Of a DNA stretch of 64,000 nt, positions 31,466-64,000 are shown piece after piece (position 1 is the first letter of the stretch; the number at the start of each line of letters is the position of its first letter). The stretch is from Mesotaenium endlicherianum (taxonomy: Eukaryota). Location of the stretch: the NCBI GenBank assembly GCA_009602735.1, contig WELA01001020.1:152403-216402 (forward strand), read 5' to 3'. The notes beneath the pieces are model-generated. The model ran no database searches. It was not told the DNA's origin and saw only the letters and a list, made by a program, of their open reading frames with translations. Both the position numbers and the translations under genes were made by a program.

Positions 31466-32403
31466 GCATTCAGTAGTTGCTACTCTTTGGGTTCAGGTGG
31501 GAGCTTTCCGCCCTCATCCCGACCTTCAGGCTTTTCTGCCTGATTGTTAGGCGGTGGAGTGGCAGGCTTTGCAGCTTGCTCCTCCGTTGACATTAGGCTC
31601 GGCGGCCTGCTTCTTAGGCTTTTTCCCTTTTCCGATGGATCGTCGCCTCTCCTGTTGAGTGGCGTATGTCGGACGCCTCCGGGTGGGCTGCCTCAAGAAC
31701 CTTTTATTATCGGCTGCAGTCCAACTGGTCCCCGTTCCTCCCTCTTCACGTGGTGGGGACGGGTTCGGCAAAGGCCACCCTGTTGGATCTGCTCTGGGGT
31801 CGATTGGCCAACCTCACTCGCGCTCAATGGTAGCAATGCGCGCAACGATTGTGCCAAACTCCTCCCTGGCTGGTGGCGTAACCGTCCATGCTTGTGTCAA
31901 CGTCTGCGATCTTTCAGCCGCAGCTAGTTGTGCACACATAGCATTTTTTGCTGTCAAGCGGCTTATGGTACTTCTCAGCTCTACCAGTTCCCTTTCAGAA
32001 ACTGCAGGTGTCCTAGGAGCTGAACTATCCTTCTCCCACGTTCCAGTGGATGAAGGTCGCACCATGGGAATGTGAACTCCCAATGCCATAGCTTTGCAAA
32101 CCAAGCCATTCTCTCCCTCTCTCTGCAAAATCTCCAAAATAGGTTGCGGAGGACGAGCCGGTTCCCTTCGGTGTCCCTTCTCTCTGAGCTGCTCCCCTAT
32201 ACTTGAGATAACGCATCAGCATCCGCCTGAAAGGTGCATTCCCTTCCCGGGCCACCTTTCTTGGTCTGCTTGCGCGACCGTGAGGATTACCTTGTGTTGG
32301 TTCCACCTTAGCGGTGCAGGCAGCCACTTTCTGCGGCTGTTGTAGCTAATGTGGGGTAGCTCTTGGTGTTGGAAAACTGGCGGTTGGAAAACTGCATGTA
32401 GGC

Positions 32404-34879: not shown

Positions 34880-35860
34880 TGTCTCCACCAGCCAAGTCAT
34901 AGAGTGCTGTCCAATCATGTTGCCAAAAATCTTCGCAGCTTCATCTGACCCTATAGCACCGACTATCTGCCGAGCTATGGTGTCAAGTATTCCAAGGCAG
35001 TTTCCCTTCTCCACAGCAGTAGGCTCTCTCCAAACGGCGTCTCTTTCATGCATGTCTTTGACCATTCGTGGTCCACCTCCTATGAAGGCTCGAGATCCTG
35101 GATACACTGTGAAAGTAGGCAGTACCGCCCTTGGCTGACGTGGTTCGCTGATGACGCACTGTGGATAGGAATCCCTCCTGGTCACTGGCTCGGTACGTAC
35201 CCCCAGCGCCTTTCTCACTGTCAATGCCGTCGGTGATCACCGTGTAAGGTCCTCCATCTCTTTCAGGATCTCAATAGACATGCCGTTGGTCCAAAATAAT
35301 CTGGCCCTATGGGATAATCCTCCGTGCTTGGCGTCGTTGATTAGCACATGATGTCCCAATGTGGAGTCAAAAATCAGCCATGGCTCTCCCAGCTTCATCT
35401 GCTTGTAATCCATTCCTGGATGCACGTTCTCAATCACAAACACTGGTGGGTGATAGTGCTAACGTTCCCGCAGCATGCTGATGATTTTCACCATCCATCC
35501 CCAGTGTTGTGCTCGTGGATCACTGAATCCCCTCCGATCCCCAGCTTGAGAAAACGGTTGACAAGGAAATCCAGCAAAAATCCAGCCAATCTTGTAGCCA
35601 TACAGGTCTTCAGGCTTCACATCAATAATGTTGCCTGCGGCGATGCGCTCAACATTTGAGTATGGAGCACCAACCCTTGGAAGTGATGCATTTGTCGCAT
35701 CTGACTTATGACTTTTCTGAATGCTTGGAAAGCGTGGTCATCATTGTCCACATATAGGACTTTGGCCACTTGTATCCCTCACTGGATCAATGCTATGGTC
35801 CCAGACCCAAGTCCGGCGAACAATTTCAACACCACCACTCCCCTTTTACGAAAAGGATCT
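34880..35860 (-). pseudogene. C5 cytosine DNA methyltransferase domain within the retroelement pol region
   Basis: Motifs in canonical order: I LFAGLGSG, II YVDND, IV FAGFPCQPFSQAG (~35540-35580), VI VIENV, VIII SHRARLFW, IX REPTAVEK, X KIFGNMI. Two stops (35779-35781, 35459-35461) and about two frameshifts. Confidence 0.9.
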
Positions 35861-36171
35861 TCCATTCTGACAATGCCTTGCGGCAGCGGCTCGACTCCCG
35901 GCATCAGGTTTGCAGCAGAGGTAATTGGATAAGGTACTGGCAGCAGCTCTTGCGGGTCGCGGTCCCTGTTACTCACGGTTTCCAGTTGCTCCATAATCCG
36001 AGGTTGCCATACCAAAGGTGTTGGCATGTTGATGCTCGTATAGATTTCCTCTTCCTGTTTCATGATGTTGTCGCAGGCTTCTAGGTACTTGTTGTTAACG
36101 CAGCAGTCTAGCAGCCCGTAATTTGCTACTCCTGTGCAAACCATGTCCACAGGAATTTCTCCTGCCGGCTG

Positions 36172-36560
36172 CTAATCTGTTGACTGGTAAGTCACCCTCT
36201 GCTTCCGCAGATCAATGACCATACCCAAGGGAATCAGTGCTTTTGTCCCCAAGAGAACATCAAAGTTCTCTGCCAACGTCACTGTGCACTCCATGAGTAG
36301 TGACGCCTCTTCAGGTTTTCCTGAATATACTATGATTTTCACAGGCTTGTGAGTAATCCCACAAGACTTGGTAACTTGCCCTAAGGCAGTTCTCAACTGG
36401 AAAGGACTCTTTCAGGTCCCTTGCTGTCAATCCTAAAGCATTTACAGCTCGCTTTCCCAGGATGACTGGCTGTGCGCCCGTATCCAACAGACCGTTAGGA
36501 GCTGCCCAGTTGTTGAATAGTATTGTACTATCCCTATTCTGCACTCTCACAATGCTGAAA
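36172..36560 (-). pseudogene. Retroviral-type aspartic protease
   Basis: GLLDTGAQPVILGKRAVNALGL...FDVLLGTKAL, split by one frameshift. Confidence 0.8.
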
Positions 36561-37012
36561 TTGGTAGGCAATGAGGCGCTGCTTGCACCCTCCTCAGCTA
36601 TATCCAGCTGATGTCTCGCTTCTTCAACCGTAAATGGGTAGGTGATATGCAAATCAGCGAGAGAAAGCAAAGGAGCATGCTGGATCCGATGTTCCACCAG
36701 GGCCTTCAGCTTCTCCAGCGAAAAACTAAATGTCTTACGCGTCCTAGGCCTCGCTTGTCGCAGCTGCGAGATCTCATTTTCATCCAGAGTGATCCAAAAA
36801 GTCTGAGGAAGCTTCCCAGCATTCCTTGGTACCAAACGGTCGTGATCTGCTCGCTCGGCAGCCGTTGCACCCACAGCCTTCTCAGGCGTCAGCTTCCCGC
36901 CTTTGCAGACGGTCTTTTCTGCAACATCTGCATCATAGTAGACATTAGGCGCATTTAGTTTTGCAACTTGAGCTTTCAACTCAACGATTTCCGCACTCAT
37001 AGCGTCATACTT

Positions 37013-38625
37013 CTAGTTACCCTTGCGATTACCAGAGCTACCCTTTTCTTTCTTTTTCTCCTTGTCTGCCTCTTTTGTGGCAGCATTTGCCCATGGCGGC
37101 TTCAAATTTGGGTTCTTAGACCAGCACTCATCTTCTGAGTGTCCCTTCTTGCTGCAATGTGCACATATCTGCGCCTTGCTAGCAGATACTTGCTTAGCAT
37201 CCGAGTACGGACAATCTCTTTTCTGATGTCCTGATTTCTCGCAATTCCAACAGCCCTCTGCTATTTCAGCAGTGTTGGCGTGCTTAGCAAACTTATTGAA
37301 AGACCCGCTCTTTTTCTTAAATTGAAAATTAGAGCTGTTGGCCTTAGGTGGAGAAAATTCCTCCCTCCTCTCAGAAGCCATAAGCGTCCTGGAAGCCTCC
37401 TTGTACCACAATTAACCTTCTTTGACATTGCGTGCTATTTCAACCGCCTCGTCAATGTCCCAGTCTATCCCGTGCTTCGCGAACAGGTGTGGCCTGACTT
37501 CACAATCTGTTTCCTTGCCCAAGCATAACAGAAATTTGTCAGCCACTGGGCTCGTAGATTTTTGCCTTTTTGGCGAGGTCTACCAATCTGGATTTAACCT
37601 CCATGACTGTCTCGTTCTTTTGACGGACAAAATGCACATAACGGTGCACCTCAAGAATGCGATCCTCTGGGAATCGTGCTTCAAGCAACTTAAAGAAACG
37701 ACGCAGGCAATGCTCGGAGTCCAGCTGGTCATCCCCAGCCTCCATATCCTTACGACAGCTTGCGAGGGCTTGTGCATGGCTTGCCTCTGTCGTGGCGCTA
37801 TTGCATTGCTGACCATTAAAAGGTGCAGCTCTGTGCGTTACTCGTTCCTGAGCATTAGCAATCTTTTCAGACATATCTGCACACACCTTTCGCAACTCCG
37901 CGACAGAGCCGGCATCATCATTCTGAGTAGCAGCTCTTTGCTGGCCCTCAATGAGTTGCCTCATGGCCTCTGTTAATTCTTGTGGTAGTGCAGCTAAGTC
38001 TATGCTCTCAACAGGTGCAGTTGGCACTGCTCTTCCTGAAGATAAAGCAGACATTCGAGCTTTCGCAGCCTCATTCTGGATTTTCAAATCCCTAGCCCTT
38101 TTCTGCTCTCCAAATGCCCATTCCTGGGTGAGATCCTCATCCTTCCGGAATTGACGATATAGCAACAGGGGATCCTTATCCAAGTATTGAACCAAGCCTA
38201 TAAATGCGACAGATTGCGTATAAAAAGAATACGTCCGAATCTTCTCAAAACTTCTACCCAATAGATCTCATCAAACTCTTCGAAAGTGACACCGTTTCCA
38301 CTGGTTCGTCCGCTAAAACACTTTGCAGACAGCTTGAACTTAGGATTTTCATCCGGATCATCACCAGCCATTTCGAATGGTGACTTGAACTCACTGACCT
38401 TACCCCACACGTCTTGCTCTCTACCCAAATCAGGTACAAAGGCTCGTGTGTTATCCGGGTTCTCACCGCTTGCGGAGATATGGCAAGACTCGTCTCTTGA
38501 CGATTGCTCACTCCACCGATTGTCAGTATGCTCAGACGTCTCACTTCCTCGTGGACTCTGGCTAGAATCAAAACCTTCCGCAGGCTCCACAGGGTGGTAT
38601 AGTCTTCCACTCCTCAACCGCATAT
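37013..38625 (-). pseudogene. gag-like gene with two CCHC zinc knuckles
   Basis: Starts MRLRSGRLYHP; knuckles CWNCEKSGHQKRDC and CAHCSKKGHSEDEC; internal stops and frameshifts. Confidence 0.8.
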
Positions 38626-39214
38626 ACAGCTGAATTTCTCCGGGTCCCCTTCCAGGTTGAACACGGGCAGCCTTCACAGGCCTCAATCCCCAACTGGCTT
38701 GGAAATTCTTGATAAATCACGTCTAAGCAGCTTAACAGGCAATGCCGGATCCAGAGAAAATCGCCCTTCAAGGCTTAACTTTCACAAGTTACTGCTTACA
38801 AAATTCTGATACTGCGCATCTATACTGGCCTGGTCTGAGCTCTTCCCACAACACCGCGCCTAAACAGTTCTTTACTGCTTGGCTGGGCTCACTTAGTTCT
38901 TCACTGAGAGCTTTACTTGTTAATACTACTCTTGCTATCAGCAATTTGACAATCGAGACTTCTGAGAACTTGGAAACTAACACAGTACTCACCATTTTAA
39001 GTGGCTTTCGCACGCTTGTGGTGTTCGACTCGAATATGTGCTAATGTCCTAACAAATTCTATTTTGCAGTTCTCTACCTAATTTACCAGCAAGATCCCCT
39101 CTTCGGAACTCCTGAGGTCTAACCTTTTTATGATACACTTGAGAAGAAATCTTCTAGCGTCGGCAGAAGCGTGGCGTCTCGGCTCTTATGTGGCCTTGGA
39201 AACTCCTTCTTCTT

Positions 39215-40477
39215 TGAAATGAATCTTGCTTATTCAAGATTAATATATTTCATTTGAATATAAAAGATCAGAGATAGGTGGAAGCGTGTGAAATCAGGGA
39301 GCGATCTTCGCCCTTATAATGAATTCCATTTACTCATCTATAACCCTTGACTCACTTATCGTAGTGTGCCATAGTTGCACACGAATACAAGGCACAAGAA
39401 AGAGGCGAGCTTGAGGACTAGAGCTTCTCCTTTAGAAACTCCTGACCTCTTGCCTACGAGGCATACAAGCATGTGTAAGCACATACACAACATCAGGGGA
39501 CTGAATAACAAAGGCGCTCTCATTCAGATGACCATAAAGTAGCTCAAACACATCCCACTGACTTAGGTGCGAAAACCATGGAATCTGTCCACTGTGTGAC
39601 CCCAAAATGTCAAAGGGCATAACTCTGTCAATACCACTTCAAATTGCGCAAACTTAACGGCAACGGATGCATCTTGACAAGACCTTTCCGAAAAGTTCTA
39701 GTTCGCTCCATTTGGAGCGCAAACGAAGCAGCCATGTCAATTTCTGTGAAGGCTGGTCATTAGAACGAACCCAAAAAGTGCACACATCACTTGCAAGTAG
39801 AAATCCGACTGTAAAGCCTACTGTCCAGAATGAGGGACCACGAGATCCCAGCCTGCTATGTACCTAGTGACCACCTGGTTGACCACGGCGCAAGGTGCGC
39901 CGTTTCGTGGGAAACCCGTTCAGTTGGGACCCACGGATCTAGGTATAACGACCATATTAATTGGTCGGTTGACTGAAGTCCTAATTGTTCAGATGACTGA
40001 CAACGGCTCCGCCTACCCAGGAGTTAACCACACTGGTAGGACATCGGCTTACCGAATCTCAGTCGACCTCCCGACTTTCAGTATACTACGGTCACATGTG
40101 CCAATCTACAAATAACAATCTAAATGAATATGTCTATCCTCACCGTACTAAAGCTAAGTATATTGACTAATATCAAGCGAGCTTACTATATGTCAACCTA
40201 CTGATATTATATCCTATGTATAATTGATATATAAATCTCAGCAAACTACACTATGATACAAAAGTCATCCTGCTGACCTTTTCAACAAAGTCAGCAAACT
40301 ACACTATGGTACAAAAGTCATCCTGCTGACCTTTTTGACAAAGTAAGTAAACTCGCATTACATCGACATACATTCATTTAGATGAACTCGCACATGTGAG
40401 TACATAGACCTAATACTTTTTTAGTGTTATATTTATAAATGCAATTAATTATATTGATAATGAACTGATTCATTACA
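39215..40477 (-). mobile_element. Solo LTR, family A, copy 2
   Basis: Same termini; TSD TTCTT (39210-39214 / 40478-40482). Confidence 0.92.
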
Positions 40478-41281
40478 TTCTTCGCGCTCCGTCTTCTCCT
40501 TTTCTTTTGTATCTTTGTCTTACGCTTTCTTGACAACGCGATACGAGCCGAAATGAGGCAGCTTCAGGCAGGACTTGTGCCTTTTGCAGGCATCACACAT
40601 TATTCTCTCGAGAATGCCAGTGCTTAGTCACGGCGCTTAGTTTACATGCCGTCCTTACTTAGCAGCCTTCAAACAGCTTCGAAGTTGTCACCCAGCATGC
40701 ATGCATGCCTTGTGACTGTTGCGCGAGACTGCCTAGCCTTTTAGCTGGCAATCATGCCTAGGTGGCTGGCGGCTGGCAGCGTTTGAGATGAATGCTCAAG
40801 CTGTGCTTAGTTACTTGAGGGTCTTGGCCGAGGTGGCACACAACGCCTTTGCAACATCCCTGCTGTACTTGACTTAGATAGCCAATTGATCCGCACCTTT
40901 CTTGGCACTTGTTGGGCTGGCTTATTACTGGTTCCAGGCCCCCAGCCTTTTGGCTGACTACTTCGTCCAAATTTCCATCCATCCGTGGGTGTGGGATTTG
41001 ACGTGTCGTGACCACTTTGACAGTGACGGCGACTTTGACATACCCGTTGACTGAGATAACTCAATCTTTTGGTCGGTGAGTCAACGCTGACTTTCCGTAC
41101 CTGGTCCACCGTGACTTGCGTTGAGCGTGTGGCACCGTCCAGTGGTTGGCAATCGCGACAAGGATTTTCTATGAGTCATAGCGGTGCTTGTAGCACCATG
41201 TCCTCTATTCGCACACACTGTTTGCTCCCTCCTCAATTCCAACGTTTTGTTCTTCACCCTCTTCAATTGTCGCTGGAAATT

Positions 41282-48270: not shown

Positions 48271-49364
48271 GCAAAGTAATAACATTCACCCAACATTGAA
48301 CACAATGTCCCAATGTGTGTGTAGAAGTTTGTGTGTAGTGTGTGTGTAGAAGTTTGTGTGTAGGTGTGTGTGTGTATGTGTGCCTAGACCTCACACACAA
48401 AATCCCATATCCTAAAACTTGAGCTACAAGTAGCCAATGTGTGTGTGTGTATGTGTGCGTGCGTGTGTGTGTGTGTGTTTGTGAGTGTGTGTGTGTGTGC
48501 ATGCAAGTTAAATGTACAACACTCAAACGTTGAAATGAATCGACTTACCAATTAGGCGATTAACAATTAATAAAGATCTTTATATCAGCAAACAATCTTT
48601 ATGGTATTTTCCGTTATTTGAATTAACAGCAAAGGACCACACACTAGCAGTGAATAATACTTGTAAGTCAAATGCAAGCAAACTAGCATCAATTATGCAA
48701 TCAGTAAACTCATACATAAGCAAGGTTGGAAGACAGTGCGTATCAATGGCTTCTAGCCTTGGATTCAGATCTCTCTGAGTAAGCTGCACAAGAGAGTTGG
48801 CCTCGTTTCCGAATGCCAAACTTGAGAGCAATGCCTAGCATATGTAGAAGGAATGAGTTTACTGTTCAACGGCCAGTGCGATGGCACCGCCTACCCGGGA
48901 GTTAACCACGTTGGTAGGACCTCGGTTAAGCAAATCCACCGCCATCTCCCATCATCCCGAATCGCCATCCATCGTAGGGATGTCATCTGGCCATTAATCT
49001 AGCATACCACACTTAGATGCATATCAAGGCAGTTCGCTGCTACCGAGTACGGAAGTCAGCTGGCTGTCAAAGAATGTGTCAGCAAGCTGACTTAAGTTGG
49101 CATCAGCCTGCTGCTTCCGGCTGAGTCCTTAAAGTGATAATTATGTAAAGTCCAGCAGACTCAATACTACATGAAGTTCAGTAGGCTGAACATGATTAAC
49201 AATTATATTTAAAATGAATATTATATCTACTAATATACTGATTCATTACAATTCCTCCAACTTAACTTGTTGTTGCCTCGACAACATTAAACTGCATAAG
49301 TTTTTGGTCAGGTAACTGAACCTGACCAGCCTCCCCCACTGGCTGCTTTTTCAGCCTGTCACCT

Positions 49365-51531
49365 AGGGGATTGTTCCTGGGGCTTCAGGATCAGGGGACT
49401 AAGATCTGGACCTAGATCTGGACAGCCCTCTAGGTTTGTCAGCTGGCCTTCTGAAGAACCCCGTTTGTTCTAAAGTTGGACCTCGAGGAGAACGAAGGAT
49501 GGTAGCCTGCTCTTCAACCACTTGGGTGTTGATCCCCACATGGACAGGCATTCCAGTAGGGTGCTGAAATACATTGGCAAGAGGTACATGCCCCTGAGCG
49601 AAGGGAGAGGCCGGCATACCTCTGGCCACCCCGCGTGTCCCTCTTCTGGCACCCCTGTCCTCTGGAGATTTCTGCCTTTGTCTGCTGCCAAGTACAGTCA
49701 GATGAGCTTCTTCCCCTGCTTGGGGAGGTGGGCTGGGGGAGCGAGTGCGCAATTCAGTTACTTCTATGGCCGGAGTCAAATGCCATATTCCTGATCTCGG
49801 ACCCTGAGGAAGCCCTGCTCTTGCCTGCCCCTGGGTGTCCTGAGTACCAGGTCCTGATGCTTCTCCTCTGCCTTGTTCTTCTTCCTCATCCTCCTCATCT
49901 TCCTCCTCTGAGAGGGTAGGAGTCTCGTCCACTAAGTCGTCCTGCTCCCTTGTAGACATGGAGTAGTCTACTGACCTCCCTTTCTTAGGGCGCGCCGGAG
50001 GTTGCTTGGCCTTTAGCCTGCTGATATCTATCCGGCTTGCATTCTTTGCCCATTTGACAAAAGCATGCTTTCCCTTAGAGAAGTAGTCTCTCCCCCTCCT
50101 CCTGTGCTCTTTGGTCTCTGCATTCATATTGCTCAGGCAGCCATTCAGCTTGGGGTCCCAAGGGGCAATGTGAGGTGGTAGGATGAGGTAGCCGTCCATG
50201 TAGTGAAACAGATAGATAAAGTACTTAGTAGAACAGAATACTTTATCTATTCAAGACAAGGATCTTTGAACACAAGTGGTAGCTTCTTTGAAAGAGAGAT
50301 GGCTTCTTGAAAGTTTAAGTACAAGAGTGATTCTCCCATGTCTTTCTATGTTCTAGCCCTTGTTTATATACTTGCTACATAAGTAATTTCTAGGAAGGTG
50401 TATGTTGATGTGTTGGCACCCAACACATCCCAAAACTTGCCACCTCTTTCTAGAATAATGTACACATGTCCTTTTGACCTAAAAATGGCACATCTGACTT
50501 TTGCCACATGGAGTTCTACTAGGTCTTTCCTCTAACTTCGAAAGTGCCTTGGAAGGTTCAAAGGACATGAACCAAGTTACTAGAGTACCTATTCACACTT
50601 GACTCCACACAATACTACTCCAAATATATTTGAAAACATTAAAATATATGCAAACTAATATATAATAACTCAAATCACTACAGTCCAGGCCATCGTGAAA
50701 GTCATCCGGTTGGGCTCGATCACACTCCTGCTTTTTGTTTGTGACGGTCATCTACGTCCAGTCTGTTGGCTGTTGGTAGTACTGGGGTCCATGCTTAGCC
50801 TTCCTCAGTTTACACGGGAACCAATGGGGAGAGAACATCTGCTGTCCTGCTTCCCTGGCCAAGTACTCCCAGCTCCTCCTCTCAACTTCATTGTAAGCTG
50901 GCAGTAGTGTGAGGTAGATAATCGTATCCGTAAAGCTATCGGGCCGCATGCTCACCATCCTGATGAGTCTCTGATCTCTCACTATTCCCGGTATTGGGAC
51001 CGGCTTGTTCTCTGAATCATATGCAAGATACCGGGCCTGCTCTGCTGTATAGCCCACCATCTTGGCATAATCTTCGTAGAGTACCACACCAGTGTGTGTC
51101 TCAATGTACCTATCCAGTGCTGCAGCTCCTTGCCTCTGTAGCAGTGTTGTTTGTTCCAGCTTGTTGATCTCTTGGGCTGCCAGCAATGCTTCCTTCAGCT
51201 TATCAAAGTTTTGGCCACCCACCACAGTATACCTGTAAGTGGCCAAGCTCTTATGCCTGTCCGCTTCAGCCTTTTTCCTTCTCTCCTCCTCTGCCGCTGC
51301 CGCTTCTTTTTGTTGTTTCTTCTGTCTCTCCTCCTCAGCTTTCCTGAGGTTTTCTGCTTCTTGATCCTTCTTCCTCTGTGCCTCTTTTGCCGTCTCTTGT
51401 TGTCTGCGGACCCTTTCTTGCTCTCTTCTGGTGAGGGACGTTGCCGCCAGCTCCTTCTGGTATTGCTCCATTGTCCTCCTGACTTCTTCTGCCTTGCGCT
51501 TTCTGTCCTCCTTTTGTGTGGTGGGAGCCAT
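49365..51531 (-). pseudogene. Disrupted copy of the family-B extra gene (intron-less 5' leader)
   Basis: Close homolog of 53207-54883; TAG stops at 50752-50754 and 49399-49401; split by the solo LTR at 50199-50682. Confidence 0.88.
50199..50682. mobile_element. Solo LTR (family C), 484 bp
   Basis: TGTAGTGA...TCACTACA terminal inverted repeat; TSD GTCCA (50194-50198 / 50683-50687). Confidence 0.92.
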
Positions 51532-53093
51532 CCTTACAGGTTGATTGCTAGGAGTTGACGTAGTTGCGGTGCGCTAGACATAAACGAGGTCCTTTTTCTT
51601 CCGCCCAAGGTGCTTGATGTGGGCCAGGCTGTCCCATCTGTCACTATGCTGACACTTAGGATCTTAGGATTCACGAATTTGTCCCTTTTTCGCTCTCGCA
51701 CACTTACTGTCATTACGAAACTGTCCCTTTCTCGCTTTCGCACACTAGCTGTCATATATTTTCCCCTCCAACTTAAATGGAGACAGGACCTCCTGTCACC
51801 TTCTCGTGTCAACTGAAATGACCGTTATGGAGGGGCTCTAGCCGCCCGAAGGTGGAACCGTTTCCACGCCCCTTTGGCATTGGTCAAATGGTCCTTAAGT
51901 TCCCAAGTGTCCCCAGAGGCATCGTAACCTTTCCATCGAATGAGGTACTTCATGACATATTTAGACGATCGACGGACCGAGCGCGCGTCTAAAATCTCCT
52001 CAACCTCATATTCCTCAGGGTCACCGTCCCGGACAGCTGGGACCGGTCCCGGTTGGACAGGTAACCGACCCGTGAACAGTGTGTCCCTGTGATGAATCTG
52101 TTCATTACTTATTTAATTAATTGCATATATAAATATAACACTAAATAAGTATTATGTCCATATACTCACATGTGCGAGTTCATCTAAATGATGTATGTCG
52201 ATGTAATGCGAGTTTACTTACTTTGTCAAAAATGTCAGCAGGATGACTTTTGTATCATAGTGTAGTCTGCTGACTTGTTGAGAAGGTCAGCGAGATGACT
52301 TTTGTATCATAGTATAATTTGCTGAGATTTGTATATCAGTTATATATATGAAATGAATCGACTTACCAAATAGGCGATTAACAATTAATAAAGATCTTTA
52401 TATCAGCAAGTAATCTTTATGGTATTTCCGTTAACTAGTTAAACGGCAAAGGACAATACACTAGCAGGGAATAATACTCGTTAGTCAAATGCGAGTAAAC
52501 TAGCATCAATGATGCAAATTAGTAAACTCATACATAAGCAAGGTTAGAAGACAGTGCGTATCAATGGCTTCTCGCCTTGGATTCAGAGTTCTCTCAGTAA
52601 GCTGTACAAGAGAGTTGGCCTCGTTTCCGAATGCCGAACTCGAGAGCAATGCCTAGCATATGTACATGGAATGAGTTTACTGTTCAACGGTCAGTGCGAT
52701 GGCACCGCCTACCCGGGAGTTAACCACGTTGGTAGGACCTCGGTTAACCAAATCCACCGCCATCTCCCATCATCCCGAATAGCCATCCATCATGGGGATG
52801 TCATCTGGCCATTCATCTAGCAGGTGGTACTTAGATGCATATCAAGGCAGTTCGCTGCTACCGAGCACGGAAGTCAGCTGGCTGTCAAAGAATGTGTCAG
52901 CAAGCTGACTTAAGTTGACTTCAGCCTGCTGCTTTTGGCCGAGTCATTAAACTGATACTTACGTAAAGTTCAGCAGACTGATTACTAACTAAAGTTCAGC
53001 AGATTGACTACTAACTAAAGTCCAGCAGGCTGAACTACATTAACTATTATATTTAAATGAATATTATATCTACTAATATACTGATTCATTACA

Positions 53094-53108
53094 ATCCCTC
53101 CAACTTAA
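53094..53108 (-). promoter_or_regulatory. Polypurine tract abutting the 3' LTR
   Basis: TTAAGTTGGAGGGAT immediately before TGTAATG. Confidence 0.75.
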
Positions 53109-53206
53109 CTTGTTGTCGCCTCGACAACATTAAACTGCAAATGCTTTAAATAAAGAAACTGACCCTGACCAGCCTCCCTTACTGACTATCTTTTCAGCCT
53201 GTCACC

Positions 53207-54883
53207 TTAAGGGGTGGTTCCTGGGGCTTCAGGATCAGGGGACGGAGATCTGGACCTAGATCTGGACAGCCCTCTAGGTCTGTCAGCTGGCCTTCTAAAG
53301 AACCCGGTTTGCTCTAAAGTTGGACCTCGAGGAGAACGAAGGATGGTAGCCTGCTCTTCAACCACTTGGGTGTTGATGCCCACATAGACAGGCATTCCAG
53401 TAGGATGCTGAAATACATTGGCTAGAGGTACATGCCCCTGAGCGGAGGGGGAGGCTGGCATACCTCTGGCCCACCCGCGTGTCCCTCTTCTGGCACCCCT
53501 GTCCTCTGGGGATTTCTGCCTGTGTCTGCTGCCCAATACAGTCAGATCAGCTTCTTCCCCTGCTTGGGCAGGTGGGCTGTGGGAGCGAGCGCGGGCTCCA
53601 GTTGTCGCCATAACGGGGATCACATTCCAAACACCTGATCGTGGTTCTTTAAGAAGCGCCCCTACCTGTCCCTGGGTATCCTGAGTACCTGCTGCTGATG
53701 CTTCTCCTCTGCCTTGTTCTTCTTCCTCATCCTCCTCATCCTCCTCCTCGGAGAGAGTAGGGGTCTCGTCCACTAAGTCGTCCTGCTCCCTAGTAGACAT
53801 GGAGTAGTCTACCGACCTCCCTTTCTTAGGGCGCGCTGGAGGTTGCTTGGCCTTCAGCCTACTGATATCTATCCGGCCTGCATTCTTTGCCCATTTGACA
53901 AAGGCATGCTTTCCCTTAGAGAAGTACTCTCTTCCCCTCCTCCTATGTTCCTTGGTCTCTGCATTCATATTGCTCAGGCATCCATTCAGCCTGGGGTCCC
54001 AAGGGGCAATGTGAGGTGGTAGGATGAGATAGCCGTCTAGGCCATAGTGGAAGTCATCCGGTTGGGCTCGGTCACACTCCTGCTTCTTATTTGTGACGGT
54101 CATCCACCTCCAGTCTGTTGGCTGCTGGTAGTACTGGGGTCCGTGCTCAGCCTTCCTCAGTTTACACGGGAACCAGTGGGGAGAGAACATCTGCTGTCCT
54201 GCTTCCCTGGCCAAGTACTCCCAGCTCCTTCTCTCAACTTCATTGTAAGCTGGCAGGAGTGTGAGGTAGAATACCGTATCCTTAAAGCTATCGGGCCGCA
54301 TGCTCACCATCCGGATGAGTCTCTGATCTCCCACTATTCCCGGTATGGGGACCGGCTTGTCCTCTGAATCATCTGCGAGATACCGGGCCTGCTCTGCTGT
54401 ATAGCCCACCATCTTAGCATAATCTTCGTAAAGGACCACGCCGGTGTGTGTCTCGATGTACCTGTCCAGTGCTGTAGCTCCTTCCTTCTGTAGCAGTGTT
54501 GTCTGTTCCAGCCTGTTGATCTCCTGGGCTGCCAGCAATGCTTCCTTCAGGTTATCGAAGTTTTGGCCACCCACCACAGTATACCTGTAAGTGGCCAAGC
54601 TCTTCTGTCTGTCCGCTTCAATCTTTTTTCTTTTCTCCTCTTCTGCCGCTGCCGCTTCTTCTTGCTGTTTCTTCTGTCTCTCCTCCTCAGCCTTCCTGAG
54701 GTTTTCCGCTTCCTGATCCTTCTTCCTCTGTGCCTCTTCTGCCGCCTCTTGTTGTTTGCGGACCCTTTCTTGTTCTCTCCTGGTGAGGGACGTCGCCGCC
54801 AGCTCCTTCTGGTATTGCTCCATTGTCCTCCTGGCTTCTTCTGCCTTGCGCTTTCTGTCCTCCTTTTGTGTGGTGGGCGCCAT
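53207..54883 (-). CDS. Unknown extra protein (558 aa) between pol and the 3' LTR
   Basis: Uninterrupted ORF, conserved in the second copy. The start MAPTT at 54883 lies 1 nt after an intron acceptor and matches the start in the older copy (51531). Confidence 0.85.
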   Translation of the reverse strand: MAPTTQKEDRKRKAEEARRTMEQYQKELAATSLTRREQERVRKQQEAAEEAQRKKDQEAENLRKAEEERQKKQQEEAAAAEEEKRKKIEADRQKSLATYRYTVVGGQNFDNLKEALLAAQEINRLEQTTLLQKEGATALDRYIETHTGVVLYEDYAKMVGYTAEQARYLADDSEDKPVPIPGIVGDQRLIRMVSMRPDSFKDTVFYLTLLPAYNEVERRSWEYLAREAGQQMFSPHWFPCKLRKAEHGPQYYQQPTDWRWMTVTNKKQECDRAQPDDFHYGLDGYLILPPHIAPWDPRLNGCLSNMNAETKEHRRRGREYFSKGKHAFVKWAKNAGRIDISRLKAKQPPARPKKGRSVDYSMSTREQDDLVDETPTLSEEEDEEDEEEEQGRGEASAAGTQDTQGQVGALLKEPRSGVWNVIPVMATTGARARSHSPPAQAGEEADLTVLGSRHRQKSPEDRGARRGTRGWARGMPASPSAQGHVPLANVFQHPTGMPVYVGINTQVVEEQATILRSPRGPTLEQTGFFRRPADRPRGLSRSRSRSPSPDPEAPGTTP

Positions 54884-54884
54884 C

Positions 54885-54987
54885 CTGCACATGTAACCAG
54901 GGCACAAGTTAGTAGGATATGGACCTTTGTCATAGGGATTGCAGGAAGTATGTTAGTATTTAGTATAGTGGCTTCGCTGCTGTTTAC
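54885..54987 (-). other. 103-nt GT-AG spliceosomal intron in the leader of the extra gene
   Basis: AAG|GTAAAC donor, TACTAAC branch site (54914-54908), TGCAG|G acceptor; exactly absent at 51532/51533 in the older copy. Confidence 0.88.
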
Positions 54988-55150
54988 CTTACAGGATGAT
55001 TGCTAAAAGTTGACGTAGTTGCGATGCGCTACACATAAACGTATGAGTGTGTTTTTATCGCTCTCGCTCACTAACTGTCATATATTTTCCCCTCCAACTT
55101 AAATGGAGACAGGACCGCCTGTCACCTTCCCGTGTCAACTGAAATGACAG

Positions 55151-58100
55151 TTATGGAGGGACTCCAGCGGCCCGAAGGTGGAACCGTGTCAACGCCCCTT
55201 TGGCATTGGTCAAGTGGTCCTTAAACTCCCAAGTGTCCCCAGAGGCATCGTAACCCTTCCATCGAATGAGGTATTTCATGACATATTTAGACGATCGACG
55301 GACCGAGCGAGCGTCTAAAATCTCATCGACCTCATATTCCTCAGGGTCGCCGTCCCGGACAGCGGGGACCGGTCCCGGTTGGACAGGGAACCGACCTGTG
55401 AACAGTGTATCACCTTTGATGTACGGTTCCAGGAAGGAGACATTAAAGACCGGGTGCCCCTTGTATTCAGCTGACATGTTCAGTTTGTAAGCATTCTGAC
55501 CGACACGACGGACCACCGAATATGGACCGACCCAGACAGGGCCAAGCTTTTTCTTGACCACACCAGGGAGGTACAGGTGCTGAGAATGCAGTTTGACTAA
55601 ATCCCCCTTGGAAAATGTCAGTTCCCGACGGTGTTGATTAGCGTATTTTTGTTGGTTTTCTTGGGCCGTGTGCAAGTTTCGTTGGACTTCTGACAGGGTG
55701 TCAGCAAACTCCTGAGTTAACTGGAGGGAGACCGGGTTGTCAATCCCTTCAGGGTGAGTTAAAGATTCCCCTAGCACATCTAGAGGAGACTTAGGGACTC
55801 TACCCAGGCTGAGTTCAAAAGGAGTTTTGCCCGTTGACGCGTGCACCGCACTGTTGACCGCAAACTGAATTTGAGGCAACAGGTCATCCCAATTATCTTG
55901 TTTTTGGTTAATATATGCTCTCAGCACCTCCTGCAGAACTCGGTTAGTTCTTTCAGTCTGCCCATCAGTCTGAGGGTGGTTTGCTGTGCTGAGCAGCTGT
56001 TTGACTCCCATTAACCCCATTAAAGCTCTCCAGAACTTAGAGGTGAATTTTGAGTCTCTGTCTGAGATGATATTAGAAGGGAGCCCATGTTGGCATACTA
56101 CATGGTTGTAAAACTGTCTCGCTGTTTCGAGTGCAGTCACTTTGACAGTTGTGGGGATAAAAATGACCATTTTTGTCAGTTTATCCACGACTACCAGTAT
56201 TGAATCATGCCCGTTGGCAGTTCTTGGTAGTGAGACCACCCAGTCCATGGATATAGTTTCCCAGCGTCCCGCTGGGATGGGTAGCGGTTGCAAGAGACCT
56301 CCGGGTGGTGTGTGCCGAGACTTATTTCTCTGACACTGGTCACAGGACTTGACATATTTCAAGACCTCCCGGGGTAACCCCTCCCAATGATAATGTTTTG
56401 CCAGTTTGCCAACAGTTTTGGCCTGCCCCAAATGTCCACCCAGGAGACTGTCATGAGCTTGACTCAGTAAGAGAGACCTTATTTCCAAATTATTAGGAAT
56501 GACCAGCTTCAGCCTGCCTGAAGTGGTTTCAGACACCCAGACCCACCCCTTGAGCTTATACCCGAGTGCAGTAGCACGACACACAGCAGTAGTGGGGCTG
56601 GGCTCAAATGTTGGGTCAAAAAGGTAGGCTTTCCTAAGTTGTTCAAGGAAGGACTTTTTCACTTTTAGTGAAGTGAGTGCACACAGGACTTTATCTACAG
56701 TATGCTGACTAAAGTTCCTTTCTTGCAAGTCAGGTCTTCTAGAGAGTGCATCAGCAGGATTCAACTTCCCTGGTTTGTAGTCGATCTGGACTTGGAACTG
56801 CTCCAGCATCTGGCTCCAGCGGTTCTCCCTCCTCGACAGCTTGGACTTCTTCTGAAAGTGGGTCAGAGCTAGATGATCTGTAATCACCTTAAAAGCTTTA
56901 CCATGTAAGTATGCTCTCCACTGTTTGAGTACATGAATGATAGCTAGCAGCTCTTTATCATGCACTGAGTAATTAATCTCCGCTGGATTAAATTTCATAG
57001 ACTCATACAACACAGGATGCCACTCCTGCCGTACCTTACCATCCTTTGTGGTTTTGTCAGCAGGCTGCAACAAAATAGCACCCATGGCAAAATCAGAGGC
57101 ATCAGTAACCACCTGCACCGGTTTGCTGGGGTCATACACGGCTAGCACTGGGGCAGAACAAAGGGCATCTTTAAGGGTCTGGAAGGCAGCCTGCTGCTCT
57201 TCCCCCCACACATACCCGATGTCTTTCTTAGTAAGGTCAGTCAGTTTACTGGCCTTTGTGGAATAATTCTCAATAAATCTCCTATAGTAGTTAGCCAACC
57301 CGAGGAAGGATCTAACTTCAGAGACAGACTGTGGTACTGGCCAGTCCCTTATGGTCTGGACTTTCTTAGGATCCACACTGATGCCCTCTTTACTGACAAC
57401 GTGGCCTAAGAATTCAATACTTTCCTTAAAGAAATCACACTTGCTCATTTTAGCATACAAGTGATTTTTCCGCAGAGTGTCCAGCACTTTCTTTAAGTGT
57501 TCAGTGTGCTGAGCTTCATCTTTAGAGAAAATTAAAATATCATCCAGGAAAACTTGCACAAACTTATCCAAATAAGGTCTGAAAATGTCATTCATAGCAC
57601 CCATAAAGGTAGCAGGAGCATTAGTCAGTCCAAATGGCATCACGTTGAACTCATAGTGTCCATAACGTGTGCGGAAAGCAGTCTTGTGTTCATCCCCCTC
57701 AGCAATTCTGATTTGATGATAACCACTCTTGAGATCTATCTTACTGAACACCTTAGCGCCAGACAGGGTATCAAGCAAGTCCTCGATTCTGGGTAAAGCA
57801 TACTTGTTCTTTACTGTAATTCTGTTCAGGGCTCTGTAATCCACACACATCCGCATACTGCCATCCTTTTTCTTAACAAATAGGATAGGTGCGCCGTACG
57901 GTGATTTACTGGGAGAAATGTAACCATTTTCCTCCAGCTCTGCAATCTGTGTTTTCAACTCCTCACTCTCCAAATAAGACAAGCCATACGTGCGTTGCCA
58001 GGGTGGCTGGCTACCAGGTAATAAATCAATCCTATGATCTACTTCCCGCTTAGGGGGTAGTCCTGGAGGCATATTAAACACATCCGTGTACTGAGCAACA

Positions 58101-58960
58101 ATGTTTGCAGCAGTAGGGTGTTCCGGAGGGTGTACCTTTTTCTCAACCACTTCTTCAGGTTGAGGAGGTACCTCTCTTAGCAGCAGACAGAACATTCTGT
58201 CTTCCTTCTGGTTCCAGCTTTTGACGAACTCCATTGCATTCAGCAACTTGCATCCTTCTGGAAGCCTCTTCTTTTCCTTCATTTGCCATCCACACAGGAC
58301 AAGAGGAAGAGCACTGGTGGGTGCCAAGTCAGTCTGCCCATCACTGGCTCCTCTCACTTTAACTGTACCTCTGCTCCAACACACTTCAGCTTGATGTCTA
58401 TTAAGCCAGGACCTGCCTAGCACGAGATCATAAAAGCCAGTGTTGAGTACCTCAAATGTAAGCGTTTCAGTTAGAACTGCAATGCCAGAACCTAACTGGA
58501 CCTCAATAGGCTTGGTTATAACTCCTCCCGGGATACTTGAGGCATCTCCAAGGAATATTTTTCTATTCCCTTGGGTGACAGTAGGCAGCCTTAGCCGCTT
58601 AACTAAGTCCTTGTGGATAAAAGTATGTGACGCCCCTCCGTCAACAAATGCCCTCACCTTCCTACCTGCAATCATGCAATGCAGTAGGATAGGGGGGACT
58701 GTCTTTTCCTGACTTTCGCATTGTTCTCCTGACGTAGCAAAGAAATGTTGGACATCAGGTGGAACAAGAGCATCCAGAGTGTGCACTCTCTGGACGTCTA
58801 TATTGCTGATGGTCTCCTTTATCTGGTTGTCAGGCATGCATAGTGAATCCAGTTCAGCAGGACCCATAATACCTGCTACGAGGGCAGCTAGTGACGACTC
58901 ACTATCTCTAGCATCCTCACAGTCAGTAGACTGGATTACTGACTGTTGCTGTCTTTTAAA
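55151..58960 (-). CDS. pol: Pol (PR-RT-RNase H-integrase-chromodomain), entered by -1 frameshift from gag
   Basis: [35 protein letters not shown] and DDE integrase, GPY motif, chromodomain EYEVDEIL...YLIRWKGYD...TWE. The frame is open upstream of the ATG at 58867 into the gag overlap. Confidence 0.95.
58919..58960 (-). promoter_or_regulatory. -1 programmed ribosomal frameshift signal
   Basis: T TTA AAA in the gag frame (58960-58954), 7-nt spacer, perfect 10-bp stem ACAGTCAGTA/TACTGACTGT with an 8-nt loop. Confidence 0.85.
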
Positions 58961-60414
58961 GGCTGGTCTTTTCTCTCGACCTTAGGCAGGTGCTTGACCG
59001 GACACTGTTCTCTGTAGTGGCCTTTCTGCTGACAATGGTAGCAAGTAGATTTTGCTGAGGCTGGTCTCGGCTTAGTCCTACCACCACCCCTTCCATAGCC
59101 ACCTCGAGAGGGACCACCTCTACCTCTAGACTGAATAGCATTGTACTCATACTCATATTCATCACCCTGATTATCCTCAGCCTGGTCTCCTTCAACTGCA
59201 TTGTAGGAACCGTGGGGCTTTTTGACAATCTTAGACACCAAAGCGTTACTCTGGCGCTTGTGATTGAACTGCTGCTGATCCCAGGCGTCAGCATCCTGGA
59301 TCAAGTCAGCCAGTTTCTCATACTTTTTCTCAGCAAAATGACCAGAGACCTCGGATTTCAAGCCATACCTGAAGTATGCTATCCTATACCGTTCTGGCAA
59401 ATCAGGCTGCTTCATCATGTTCTCTTGGAACTTTTGAGCAAACTCAGCAACTGAAGTGGTCTGCTTCAGTGTCAGGGAGATCATCGCATAGATAGCTTTC
59501 TCCTGCTGGTTGATGACATCAAACTTCTCATGCAACTTCTCGACAAACTCTACCCACGTAGGGTCACCGAGTTGCCGAGCCTTACGCTCTTCCTTCCAGT
59601 AAAGCCACCAGTCTGCGGCACTGCCTTTCAGTAGCGCATCGGTGTGCCTGACCTTCTCGTAATCTTGCAGTTCTGGGTAGTTCTCCAGCCACTGCTCAAC
59701 ATCCGCGAGAAACTTGATCAGGTAATATTTTCTGTTTCCCTCAGGATCATAGCCCTGGGGAGGTTTCGGCTTGGGCTTACTAGGCCCTCGGCCACCACCA
59801 CTAGTGGTGTGAGACCCCAGTTGGTCTCTGTCCCGGAGTAGGGACATTATGATTCTTTTGTCCTCCTGCTGGGACTGATACATGGTCGCCATTTGCGACT
59901 GCATCTGAACAAACAATGCTCCCAAGTCTACATTTTGGGGTGGTAGATTAGCAGATGCAGCAGCAGCATTGGCATCCACTCGCTGAGTAGTGTCCTCAAC
60001 AGTCCCTCTTGCTCCTGCAGCAGCAATTTCTGCCGCATTCAGCCGGTCACGTATTTGACCTAGGGGTACATTGAGTTGTACGGCAGGAGGTGGGTTCAGA
60101 ACATTGGCCCTTGATGCCATAAGTTCTTCAACAGTGCGCTCGTCAGCTGGCTGTCCTTCCCTCCTTTGTATATCTTCAGCGGCCTTTGCTACTTGTTCAG
60201 CTTCTAGTCTGGCTATCTCCTCCTCAGCTTGCTGAGCTGCGACTGAGGCAATAGCAGCTGCCTCATCTGCAGCCTCCCTAGCTGCAGTATCCGCTACTGC
60301 TTCCGAATAGGTACGGTTTCCCGCTACATGGCTTTCCGCCTGGTTTTCGACATTCTCGTTATCCTGGTTCTCCATGTCTCGGGAGTTGCTAGTTTGAGAC
60401 CTTGTCCTTACCAT
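58936..60414 (-). CDS. gag: Gag (492 aa) with CCHC zinc knuckle
   Basis: MVRTRS start, capsid motif LKGSAADWW..., knuckle [14 protein letters not shown]. Confidence 0.93.
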
Positions 60415-60435
60415 ACAAAGAAGACTGTGATAACT

Positions 60436-60447
60436 GCTCCGATACCA
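60436..60447 (-). promoter_or_regulatory. Primer-binding site (initiator tRNA-Met type)
   Basis: TGGTATCGGAGC, 1 nt after the 5' LTR; consensus is TGGTATCAGAGC. Confidence 0.9.
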
Positions 60448-63400
60448 CTGAAATGAATCGACTTACCAAATAGGCGATTAACAATTAATAAAGATCTTTA
60501 TATCAGCAAGTAATCTTTATGGTATTTCCGTTAACTAGTTAAACGGCAAAGGACAATACACTAGCAGGGAATAATACTCGTAAGTCAAATGCGAGTAAAC
60601 TAGCATCAATGATGCAAATCAGTAAACTCATACATAAGCAAGGTTAGAAGACAGTGCGTATCAATGGCTTCTCGCCTTGGATTCAGAGTTCTCTCAGTAA
60701 GCTGTACAAGAAAGTTGGCCTCGTTTCCGAATGCCCAACTCGAGAGCAATGCCTAGCATATGTACATGGAATGAGTATACTGTTCAACGGTCAGTGCAAT
60801 GGCACCGCCTACCCGGGAGTTAACCACGTTGGTAGGACCTCTGTTAACCAAATCCACCGCCATCTCCCATCATCCCGAATAGCCATCCATCATGGGGATG
60901 TCATCTGGCCATTCATCTAGCAGGTGGTACTTAGATGCATATCAAGGCAGTTCGCTGCTACCGAGCATGGAAGTCAGCTGGCTGTCAAAGAATGTGTCAG
61001 CAAGCTGACTTAAGTTGACTTCAGCCTGCTGCTTTTGGCCGAGTCATTAAACTGATACTTATGTAAAGTTCAGCAGACTGATTACTAACTAAAGTTCAGC
61101 AGACTGACTACTAACTAAAGTCCAGCAGGCTGAACTAAATTAACTAATATATTTAAATGAATATTATATCTACTAATATACTGATTCATTACATATATCA
61201 GTCATATATAGGATGTAATATCAGTAGGTTGACATATAGTAAGCTCTCCTCATATTAGTCAGTAGACGTAGCTTCAGTACGCTGAGGATAGATACATTCA
61301 TTTAGATTATTATTTGTAGATTGGCACATGTAACCGTAGTATACTGAAAGTCGGAAGGTCGGCAGAGATTCGGTAAACCGATGTCCTACCAGTGTGGTCA
61401 ACTCCTGGGTGGGCGGAGCCGTCGTCAGTCAACTGAACAATTAGGACTTCAATCAACCGACCAATTAATATGGTCGTTATACCTAGATCCGTGGGTCCCA
61501 ACTTAACGGGTTTCCCACGACACGGCGCACCTTGCGTCGTGGTCAACCAGGTGGTCACTAGGTACTTAGCAGGCTGGGATCTCGTGGTCCCTCATTCTGG
61601 ACAGTAGGCTTTATAGTCGGATTTCTACTTGCAAGTGATGTGTGCACTTTTTGGGTTAGTTCTAGTGACCAGCCTTCACGAAAATTGACATGGCTGCTTC
61701 GTTTGCGCTCCAAATGGAGCGAACTAGAACTTTTCGGAAAGGTCTTGTCAAGATGCATCCGTTGCCGTTAAGTTTGCAAAATTTGGAGTAGTATTAACAG
61801 AGACATGCCCTCTGACAGTTTGGGGTCACACAACGGACAGATTCCATGGTTTTTGCACCTAAGTCAGTGGGATGTGTTTGAGCTACTTTATGGTCATCTG
61901 AATGAGAGCGCCTTTGCTATTCAGTCCCCTGATGTTGTGTATGTGCTTACATATGCTTGTGTGCCTGGTAGGCAAGAGGTCATGAGTTTCTAAAGGAGAA
62001 GCTCTAGTCCTCAAGCTCGCCTCTTTCTTGTGCCTTGTATTTGTGTGCAACTATGGCACACTACGATAAGTGAGTCAAGGGTTATAGATGAGTAAACGGA
62101 ATTCATTATAAGGGCAAAGATCGCTCCCTGATTTCACACGCTTCCACCTATCTCTGATCTTTTATATTCAAATGAAATATATTAATCTTGAATAAGCAAG
62201 ATTCATTTCAGTCCCCTTTGGTGTAAGGTTCTAGGAAGGAGACATTAAAGACCGGGTGACCCTTGTATTCTGCTGACATGTGCAGTTTGTAAGCATTCTG
62301 ACCGACACGGCGCACCACCGATATGGATCGACCCAGACAAGACCAAGCTTTTTCTTGACCACACCAGGGAGGTACAGGTGTTGAGAATGTAGTTTGACTA
62401 AATCGCCCTTAGAAAAGGTCAGTATTCGACGGTGCTGATTAGCGTACTTTTGTTGGTTTGCTTGGGCTTTGTACAGCTTCTGTTGGACTTCTAACAGGGC
62501 GTCAGCAAACTCCTGAGTTAACTGGAGGGAGATCGGGTTGTCAATCCCTGCAGGGTGAGTTAAAGACTCCCCTAGGACATCTAAAGGAGACTTAGGGACT
62601 CTATCCAGGCTTAGTTCAAGAGGAGTCTTGCCCGTTGACGCGTGCACCGCATTGTTGACCGCAAATTGGATTTGAGGTAACAAGTCATCCCAATTATTTT
62701 ATTTTTGGTTAATATAGGCTCTCAGTACCTCTTGCAGAACTCGATTAGTTCTTTCAGTCTGCCCATCAGTCTGAGGGTGGTTTGCTGTGCTGAGCAGCTG
62801 CCTGACTCCCATTAACCCCATTAAAGCCCTCCAGAACTTAGAGGTGAATTTTGAGTCTCTGTCTGAGATGATATTAAAGGGTAGCCCATGTTGGCAAACT
62901 ACATGGTTGTAGAACTGTCTCGTTGTTTCGAGTGCAGTTACTTTGACAGTTGTGGGGATGAAAATGACCATTTTTGCCAGTTTATCCACAACTACTAGTA
63001 TCGAATTATGCCCATTGGCAGTTCGTGGCAGTGTGACCACCCGGTCCATGGATATTGTTTCCCAGCGGCCAGCTGGGATGGGCAGCGGTTGTAAGAGGCC
63101 CCCCGGTGGTGTGTGCCAAGACTTATTACTGGTCACAGGACTTAGCGTATTTCAAGACCTCCCAAGGTAATCCCTCCCAATGATAATGTTTTGCCAGTTT
63201 GCCAACAGTTTTGGCCTGCCCCAAATGCCCACCCAGTAAACTGTCATGTGCTTGACTCAATAAGAGGGACCTTATTTTCACGTTATTAGGAACGACCAGC
63301 TTCAGCCGGCCTGAAGTGGTTTTAGTCACCCAGGCCCCTCCCTTAAGCTTATACCCGAGTGCAGTAGCACGACACACACCAGTAGTGGGGTTGGGCTCAA

Positions 63401-64000
63401 ATGTTCGGTCAGAAAGGGAGGCTTTCCTAAGTTGTTCAAGGAAGGATTTTTTCACCTTCAGCGAAGTGAGTGCACACAGGACTTTATCTACAGCATGCTG
63501 ACTAAAGGTCCTTTCTTGCAAGTCAGGTCTTGTAGAGAGGGCATCAGCAGGATTTAACTTCCCTGGTTTGTAGATGATCTGGACTTAGACTGCTCCAGCA
63601 TCTGGCTCCAGCGGTTCTCCCTCCTTGACAGCTTGGACTTCTTCTGAAAGTGAGTCAGAGCTAGATGATCTGTAATCACCTTAAAAACTTTACCATGTAA
63701 GTATGCTATCCATTGTTTGAGCACATGAAGGATAGCTAGCAGCTCTTTATCATGCACTGAGTAATTAATCTCCGCTGGATTAACTTTCATACTCGTACAA
63801 CACAGGATGCCACTCCTGCCGTACATTACCATCCTTTGTGGTTTTGTCAGCAGGCTGCAACAAAATAGCACCCATGGCAAAGTCAGAGGCATTAGTGACC
63901 ACCTGCACCCGTTTGCTGGGGTCATACACGGCTAGCACTGGGGCAGAACAGAGAGCATCTTTAAGGGTCTGGAAGGTAGCCTGCTGCTCTTCCCCCCACA

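What the first reader, a model, noticed from the sequence alone, without database searches (positions are those of the whole stretch)
54885..54987. Spliceosomal intron inside an LTR retrotransposon, precisely lost in the sister copy
Seen: the young copy reads ...CCTGTAAG|GTAAAC...TACTAAC...GTGCAG|G ATG GCG. The older copy (51540-51526) reads CCTGTAAG|G ATG GCT, which is the exact splice product. Established: a retroelement keeps an intron only if unspliced RNA is packaged. Inference: the intron is genuinely spliced, and a spliced full-length RNA was once reverse-transcribed. Retention in the active lineage suggests regulated splicing controls the extra gene, or that the acceptor also serves a subgenomic mRNA. 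The SR-tailed product could itself regulate this, in a Rev/Rex-like manner.
Basis: partly seen in the sequence, partly recalled or inferred. Interest (0 to 1): 0.85.

Follow-up and report, generated by a model that had tools for sequence, protein, structure and literature searches.

The report
Retrotransposon intron erased in some copies
A jumping gene carries a 103-base stretch with textbook intron signals just before an extra gene of its own; most copies keep the stretch and a minority lack it exactly, likely because spliced RNA was now and then copied back into DNA, though splicing was not seen in RNA.

Summary
An intact chromodomain Ty3/Gypsy element (61193-52349, minus strand) has a 103-nt AG|GTAAAC...TACTAAC...TGCAG|G segment (54987-54885) one base before the ATG of an extra sense ORF. 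An older copy nearby lacks exactly this segment. Only 2 of 1,619,700 possible deletions in the element fit such signals. In genomic DNA the exact skip is the deepest of 9 joints nearby, with no ragged version listed, but most copies keep the segment. A copy far more diverged than the old one keeps the segment's 3' end, which favours loss over gain. The extra ORF (558 aa) has no homologue yet is under purifying selection like pol (dN/dS 0.15-0.23). Splicing was not shown: three RNA runs had no reads on the ORF. The Rev/Rex-like idea has no support beyond a short RS tail. Best reading: a real leader intron that gates the extra ORF and is occasionally lost through reverse transcription of spliced RNA (0.7). 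Introns in LTR retrotransposons are known (Ogre, BARE1, EVD, Cer1), so this is a new variant of a known kind.

The parts
60449..61193 (-). 5' LTR of the young element (745 bp, TG...CA); holds a perfect GTAAGT at 60466, an untested candidate donor for a subgenomic RNA
   Evidence: 12 differences in 745 bp from the 3' LTR
60435..60447 (-). Primer-binding site TGGTATCGGAGC, initiator tRNA-Met-like (assignment recalled, not from a call)
58936..60414 (-). gag (Ty3_capsid, CCHC knuckle)
   Evidence: PF19259 E 3.4e-9, PF00098 E 8.4e-4
55151..58981 (-). pol in a separate overlapping frame: protease, RT, RNase H, integrase, chromodomain
   Evidence: RVT_1 E 2.1e-41, Chromo E 2.1e-8
55090..55128 (-). 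Internal duplicate of the 3' module: a 12-nt motif also found after ORF3 and a 13-nt polypurine tract identical to the one before the 3' LTR
   Evidence: E 0.09-0.35 each, so weak alone; the positions are telling
54988..55041 (-). 54-nt exon part before the donor, 49 of 54 identical in the old copy; ends ...TAAG
54885..54987 (-). 103-nt GT-AG intron-like segment; TACTAAC at 54958 and 54914; out-of-frame ATG at 54933 (128-codon frame overlapping ORF3); in-frame ATG at 54892
53207..54883 (-). Extra sense ORF3, 558 aa: charged helical-type N-terminus, unique core, low-complexity C-terminus with a short RS run; no hydrophobic segment (highest 19-residue hydropathy 0.73)
   Evidence: dN/dS 0.15 and 0.23 against the old copy; no homologue
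52349..53093 (-). 3' LTR of the young element, preceded by the polypurine tract; flanks read TATA on both sides (4-bp target-site duplication)
51526..51540 (-). Segment-less junction in the old copy (51533|51532), ATG at 51531
48531..52094 (-). 3' part of the old copy: pol end, longer leader, broken ORF3 (premature stops, insertion of about 490 bp near 50682-50197), 3' LTR 49250-48531; its pol continues at 62212-64000
   Evidence: 7-9% diverged from the young copy

Best explanation
The 103-nt segment has the signals of a spliceosomal intron and sits in the leader of an extra gene inside a chromodomain Ty3/Gypsy retrotransposon; it is likely spliced from part of the element's RNA, and a minority of genomic copies lack it exactly, likely because spliced RNA was reverse-transcribed and integrated. 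Shown: the signals, the exact absence in the old copy and in genomic contigs, retention in most copies, and purifying selection on ORF3. Inferred: splicing removes an out-of-frame ATG (54933) whose frame overlaps the ORF3 start, so the spliced RNA would be the ORF3 message while mostly unspliced RNA is packaged. Inferred: the loss came either from a spliced full-length RNA or from RT switching between a spliced subgenomic RNA (it would carry the 3' end and polypurine tract) and the genomic RNA within the shared 54-160 nt upstream of the donor; I cannot tell these apart. What ORF3 does is open; my guess is a soluble, probably nuclear accessory protein rather than an envelope.
For: Signals beyond chance. 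Junction exact in the old copy. In DNA run X1 the joint 54883-54987 with intron-type ends has depth 473.5, the deepest of 9 joints listed in 54600-55300; 7 of 9 lie at 47-64 and one at 163, and none of the other 8 shares an end with the segment. If about 59 is one copy (my inference; the tool warns depth is no copy number), about 8 copies share the junction. Depth over the segment is 0.90 of that over ORF3, with 14% scatter between bins. The long contigs of X3 (647 nt, 1 difference) and X5 (363 nt, 0 differences) span it intact. A contig with 19 differences in 138 nt, against 3 in 104 for the old copy there, aligns 34 nt into the segment's 3' end (piece 5). ORF3 dN/dS 0.15 and 0.23, pol 0.18-0.21. 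Precise loss of an engineered intron on LTR retrotransposition is established (PMC12786077, passages).
Against: No RNA junction: X22, X23 and X24 laid 114, 183 and 99 reads on 8.1 kb, with depth 0 in all 7 bins from 53100 to 54996 (6-12% of each run read). At 85% likeness X23, the 1 of 3 re-laid, gave 4 reads, none below 55080. The ORF is silent there, so splicing is untested rather than refuted. The junction rests on one contig with 20 nt on its short side, X1 may be the window's own sample, and the junction was not listed in X3 or X5. The ends have 3-nt microhomology and a 7-bp inverted repeat flanks the segment (115 of 8,645 background window pairs), which could aid RT slippage. The segment is not U-rich (25% T), unlike the land-plant introns described in PMC3735527. 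Polarity rests on one contig whose other 195 nt did not align. Two more ATGs (55081, 55036) remain upstream after splicing.
Confidence: 0.7

Rival explanations
1. Intron gain: the segment-less state is ancestral, and the segment was inserted at an AG|G site in the lineage that later amplified.
For: The two copies differ by dS about 0.23 under purifying selection, so they are sister lineages and not parent and decayed copy. The majority state could reflect a recent burst. AG|G is what an insertion with a short duplication leaves. Transposons that create introns exist (PMC12130899, search listing only).
Against: A copy 14% diverged carries the segment's 3' 34 nt (piece 5), more diverged than the old copy (3 of 104 locally, 7% over ORF3). 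The segment has no second copy in the window and shows no terminal repeats (read from the sequence). A gained segment with these signals would still be a spliced intron.
Confidence: 0.13
2. No splicing: the segment is leader sequence, deleted by RT slippage or DNA repair at the 3-nt AGG microhomology, helped by the flanking 7-bp inverted repeat.
For: 3-nt microhomology; a helix closes the segment in the predicted fold; the leader has other indels; RT makes intron-like deletions in vitro (PMC8240250, abstract); no RNA junction seen.
Against: Only 2 of 28,602 deletions with such microhomology fit the full signals, and 14 fit donor plus acceptor. The fold is no more stable than shuffles (z -0.10). 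The inverted repeat is broken in the old lineage (4 bp). No ragged variants among 9 joints.
Confidence: 0.1
3. The acceptor is the real, selected site of a long env-type splice from the 5' LTR (candidate donor GTAAGT at 60466); the nearby donor is a cryptic one, used rarely, and that rare use made the segment-less copies.
For: Third ORFs are typically expressed from spliced messages (PMC5408684 and PMC7264820, passages). A perfect GTAAGT lies in the LTR end.
Against: No such joint was among the 15 of 74 shown. The 8 bases before the near donor are identical in both lineages. This overlaps the best explanation, since the loss would still come from splicing.
Confidence: 0.07

Closest known systems
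Plant chromovirus Ty3/Gypsy elements with a sense extra 3' ORF (eORF-3'F / aORF-3S; PMC6317226 passages and section 9, PMC7264820 first of 3 parts)
   Same: LTR-gag-pol(PR-RT-RH-INT-chromo)-extra sense ORF-PPT-LTR; extra ORF without known family; splicing reported for the barley Bagy2 env-like message.
   Different: Here a short intron with its own donor sits in the extra ORF's leader; the ORF has no hydrophobic segment, so it is not env-like; the clade is unresolved.
Ogre, BARE1 and EVD/Ty1-copia introns (PMC6317226, PMC3735527, PMC5580714; passages)
   Same: A facultative intron is kept in genomic copies and spliced from a subset of transcripts; the BARE1 intron is 104 nt.
   Different: Those introns lie in or between gag and pol and set the Gag:Pol ratio. 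BARE1's short form was reported in RNA but not in the genome; here the short form stands in DNA and no RNA junction was seen.
Penelope 75-bp intron near the transcript start (PMC2377424, passages)
   Same: Short intron at the 5' end of a retroelement message, retained through transposition; deleting it abolished reporter protein but not RNA.
   Different: Penelope is not an LTR element and the intron serves its main ORF.
Cer1 CERV of C. elegans (PMC10309623, abstract)
   Different: CERV's export role was shown experimentally; no similarity to any known protein was found for ORF3 and no function was tested.

Membership tests
Chromovirus Ty3/Gypsy LTR retrotransposon | Two LTRs, PBS, PPT, target-site duplication | tested here: met
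Chromovirus Ty3/Gypsy LTR retrotransposon | Order PR-RT-RH-INT with C-terminal chromodomain | tested here: met
A named chromovirus clade (Chlamyvir, Tcn1, Galadriel, Tekay, Reina, CRM) | RT placement with reference elements | tested here: inconclusive
   43 RT-RH sequences (25 named and 17 unnamed of 89 long hits), no clade references; groups with unnamed environmental proteins (58-60% identity), outside the main seed-plant group. A tRNA-type PBS argues against Tcn1 as described in PMC6317226 section 9.
U2-type spliceosomal intron | GT-AG ends with donor and acceptor consensus | tested here: met
U2-type spliceosomal intron | Branch-point motif near the 3' end | tested here: met
   TACTAAC, branch A 24 nt from the end
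U2-type spliceosomal intron | Removed from RNA (junction reads) | tested here: inconclusive
   no RNA reads on the ORF or the junction
U2-type spliceosomal intron | Match to the host's own intron signals | not testable with these tools
   no genome held; host not named
env-like ORF3 | Transmembrane segment | tested here: not met
   highest 19-residue hydropathy 0.73
Rev/Rex/CERV-like export protein or SR protein | Homology, RNA-binding domain or extended RS domain | tested here: not met
   none found; one short RS run
Rev/Rex/CERV-like export protein or SR protein | Needed for export or retention of unspliced RNA | not testable with these tools
   needs a bench assay

The most novel reading that the evidence does not exclude
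A chromovirus acquired a whole expression cassette between duplicated polypurine tracts: a relic LTR start acting as internal promoter, a leader intron, and an orphan protein that feeds back on splicing or export of the element's own RNA (a Rev-like switch in a non-seed plant or alga), with segment-less copies as deregulated escapees.
Probability: 0.1. Interest if true: 0.8.

Novelty: new variant of a known kind. Interest (0 to 1): 0.45.

Why it matters
If splicing is confirmed, the genome itself records how often spliced RNA of an LTR retrotransposon gets packaged and integrated, and in a very abundant family this can be counted and placed on a tree. It would also show how an extra 3' ORF with no known relative is expressed; the reviews read here leave the origin and role of most such ORFs open. 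It does not overturn anything: facultative introns in retrotransposons and intron loss through reverse transcription are established.

Tried and rejected
No whole genome was held, so no genome-wide copy count or tree was possible. The run search listed no RNA holder; that blank is not used as evidence. X3 is only a guessed RNA run, so its intact segment is not counted as unspliced RNA. Metagenome scans found nothing with ORF3 (84 pattern matches, none confirmed) or with a 36-nt piece of the segment (0). ORF3 searches were blank: Pfam gave only one sub-threshold hit in the charged N-terminus; 0 of 7,995 candidates; 0 in 1.84 billion representatives; no usable Atlas hit for residues 100-370. The single-sequence structure model was unusable (pLDDT 33.8), so no fold search was run. 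Rfam: 0 matches in 52300-61300. Two other joints with intron-type ends were not counted as splicing: 56632-60448 begins at the LTR end and is better read as a nested insertion; 56877-58136 (depth 132, AG|GTAC..CAG) could be a cryptic splice but was not pursued. One local-divergence figure (75 of 104) was out of register and is replaced (3 of 104). Earlier findings: none returned. Literature: searches listed no paper on natural splice-exact intron-less copies before a 3' ORF; I read listings and selected passages only. The main Ogre splicing paper was not held, and it may report such copies. No supplements were opened.

Full report
Observation. The segment is as described: 54987-54885 on the minus strand, 103 nt...TAAG|GTAAAC to TGCAG|G, with the ATG at 54883. 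The older copy joins 51533|51532, and its flanks match those of the segment exactly over 8 and 6 bases. TACTAAC occurs twice inside it, and these are the only two on the window's minus strand. Among 1,619,700 possible 50-300 nt deletions on the element's sense strand, 59 fit AG|GTRA..YAG and 2 also have TACTAAC in place, both ending at this acceptor; among 28,602 with 3-nt microhomology the counts are 14 and 2; the antisense control has 0 at the strict level. The strict filter was chosen after seeing the motif.

Context. The young copy is an intact chromodomain Ty3/Gypsy element: LTRs 61193-60449 and 53093-52349 (12 differences in 745 bp), gag, pol with PR-RT-RH-INT-chromo. It lies inside a solo LTR that interrupts the old copy's pol, which confirms the age order. 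After pol come a copy of the polypurine tract, a leader, the segment, and a 558-aa sense ORF. This ORF has no homologue, no hydrophobic segment, and one short RS run. Against the old copy it shows dN/dS 0.15 (282 codons) and 0.23 (271 codons), like pol (0.18 over 591 codons). dS is about 0.23 in both, so the copies are sister lineages separated mostly by active replication. An RT tree did not resolve the clade. The chromodomain keeps aromatic-cage-like residues (read, positions recalled), which PMC6317226 section 9 limits to non-seed plants among plants; the host is otherwise not identified.

Genomic evidence. No genome was held, so I laid public runs. In DNA run X1 the exact skip appears as one contig of depth 473.5. 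It is the deepest of 9 joints in 54600-55300; 7 lie at 47-64 and one at 163, and none of the other 8 shares an end with the segment. Taking 59 as one copy, about 8 copies share the junction; this is my inference, the tool warns against reading depth as copy number, and short contigs cannot show joints, so it is a floor. Depth over the segment is 0.90 of that over ORF3 (14% scatter), and long contigs in X3 and X5 span it intact, so most copies keep it. One contig with 19 differences in 138 nt reaches 34 nt into the segment's 3' end, whereas the old copy differs at 3 of 104 nt there. That suggests the segment predates the young/old split, on one contig only. X1 may be the sample the window came from.

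RNA evidence. Three poly(A) runs with X1's species label (6-12% of each read) laid 114, 183 and 99 reads on 53100-61200, with none on ORF3 or the segment. X23 at 85% likeness gave 4 reads, all above 55080. The ORF is silent in these samples, so splicing is untested.

Mechanism. Unspliced RNA has an out-of-frame ATG at 54933 whose 128-codon frame overlaps the ORF3 start, and an in-frame ATG at 54892. Splicing removes both and leaves the ORF3 ATG one base after the junction. I infer that the spliced RNA is the ORF3 message and that mainly unspliced RNA is packaged. Occasional reverse transcription of spliced full-length RNA, or a template switch from a spliced subgenomic RNA, would give the exact-loss copies (0.7). 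Rivals are gain in the majority lineage (0.13), slippage at the AGG microhomology without splicing (0.1; a 7-bp inverted repeat flanks the segment, 115 of 8,645 background, broken in the old copy), and a long env-type splice with a cryptic near donor (0.07).

Known systems. Facultative introns are documented in Ogre (PMC6317226, passages), BARE1 (PMC3735527, passages) and EVD (PMC5580714, passages); spliced messages for third ORFs in PMC7264820 (first of 3 parts) and PMC5408684 (passages); a retained 75-bp 5' intron in Penelope (PMC2377424, passages); a spliced-mRNA export factor in Cer1 (PMC10309623, abstract); and loss of an engineered intron on transposition in PMC12786077 (passages). Searches listed no report of natural exact-loss copies before a 3' ORF, but the main Ogre paper could not be read.

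Verdict. A real feature, most likely a true leader intron recorded by exact loss in DNA; a new variant of a known kind. The regulatory and Rev-like parts are speculation. Interest 0.45.

Noticed in passing
window 32403-40478 (minus strand), methylase part near 35240-35830: A second LTR element (1.2-kb LTRs) has gag-like and protease-like frames followed by a broken C5 cytosine methyltransferase (PF00145, E 3.5e-10); no RT frame was found in the ORFs scanned. DNMT-bearing Gypsy elements are described in Klebsormidium (PMC5890265, passages).
   Followed up: partly
window 55128-55080: A duplicate polypurine tract follows pol. In X1 (24 contigs) and X5 (1 contig) other copies diverge right after it with sequence starting TG, the X5 one resembling the start of this leader. 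ORF3 depth is 0.55 of pol depth. A sister subfamily without ORF3 may exist, and the leader may be a relic LTR start; not confirmed.
   Followed up: partly
window 51730-51587 versus 55058-55041: The old leader has about 130 extra nt including a 24-nt tandem duplicate; X5 shows this long type and a third leader type.
   Followed up: partly
window 60346-60449: All three RNA runs show loose ends at 60346 (11-24 reads) and 60449 (23-57 reads): transcripts from LTR-related loci elsewhere, not from this copy.
   Followed up: no
window 56877-58136: A DNA joint skipping 1258 nt of pol with GT..AG ends on the element's strand (depth 132); possibly another splice-derived deletion.
   Followed up: no
window 50682-50197: An insertion of about 490 bp in the old ORF3 with TG...CA inverted ends and a 5-bp duplication, probably a solo LTR of a third family.
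   Followed up: no
window 52679-52754 and 33172-33246; 52873-52976 and 29196-29299: The LTR of this family shares 80-82% identical patches with the second family's LTR and with a fragment at 29 kb.
   Followed up: no
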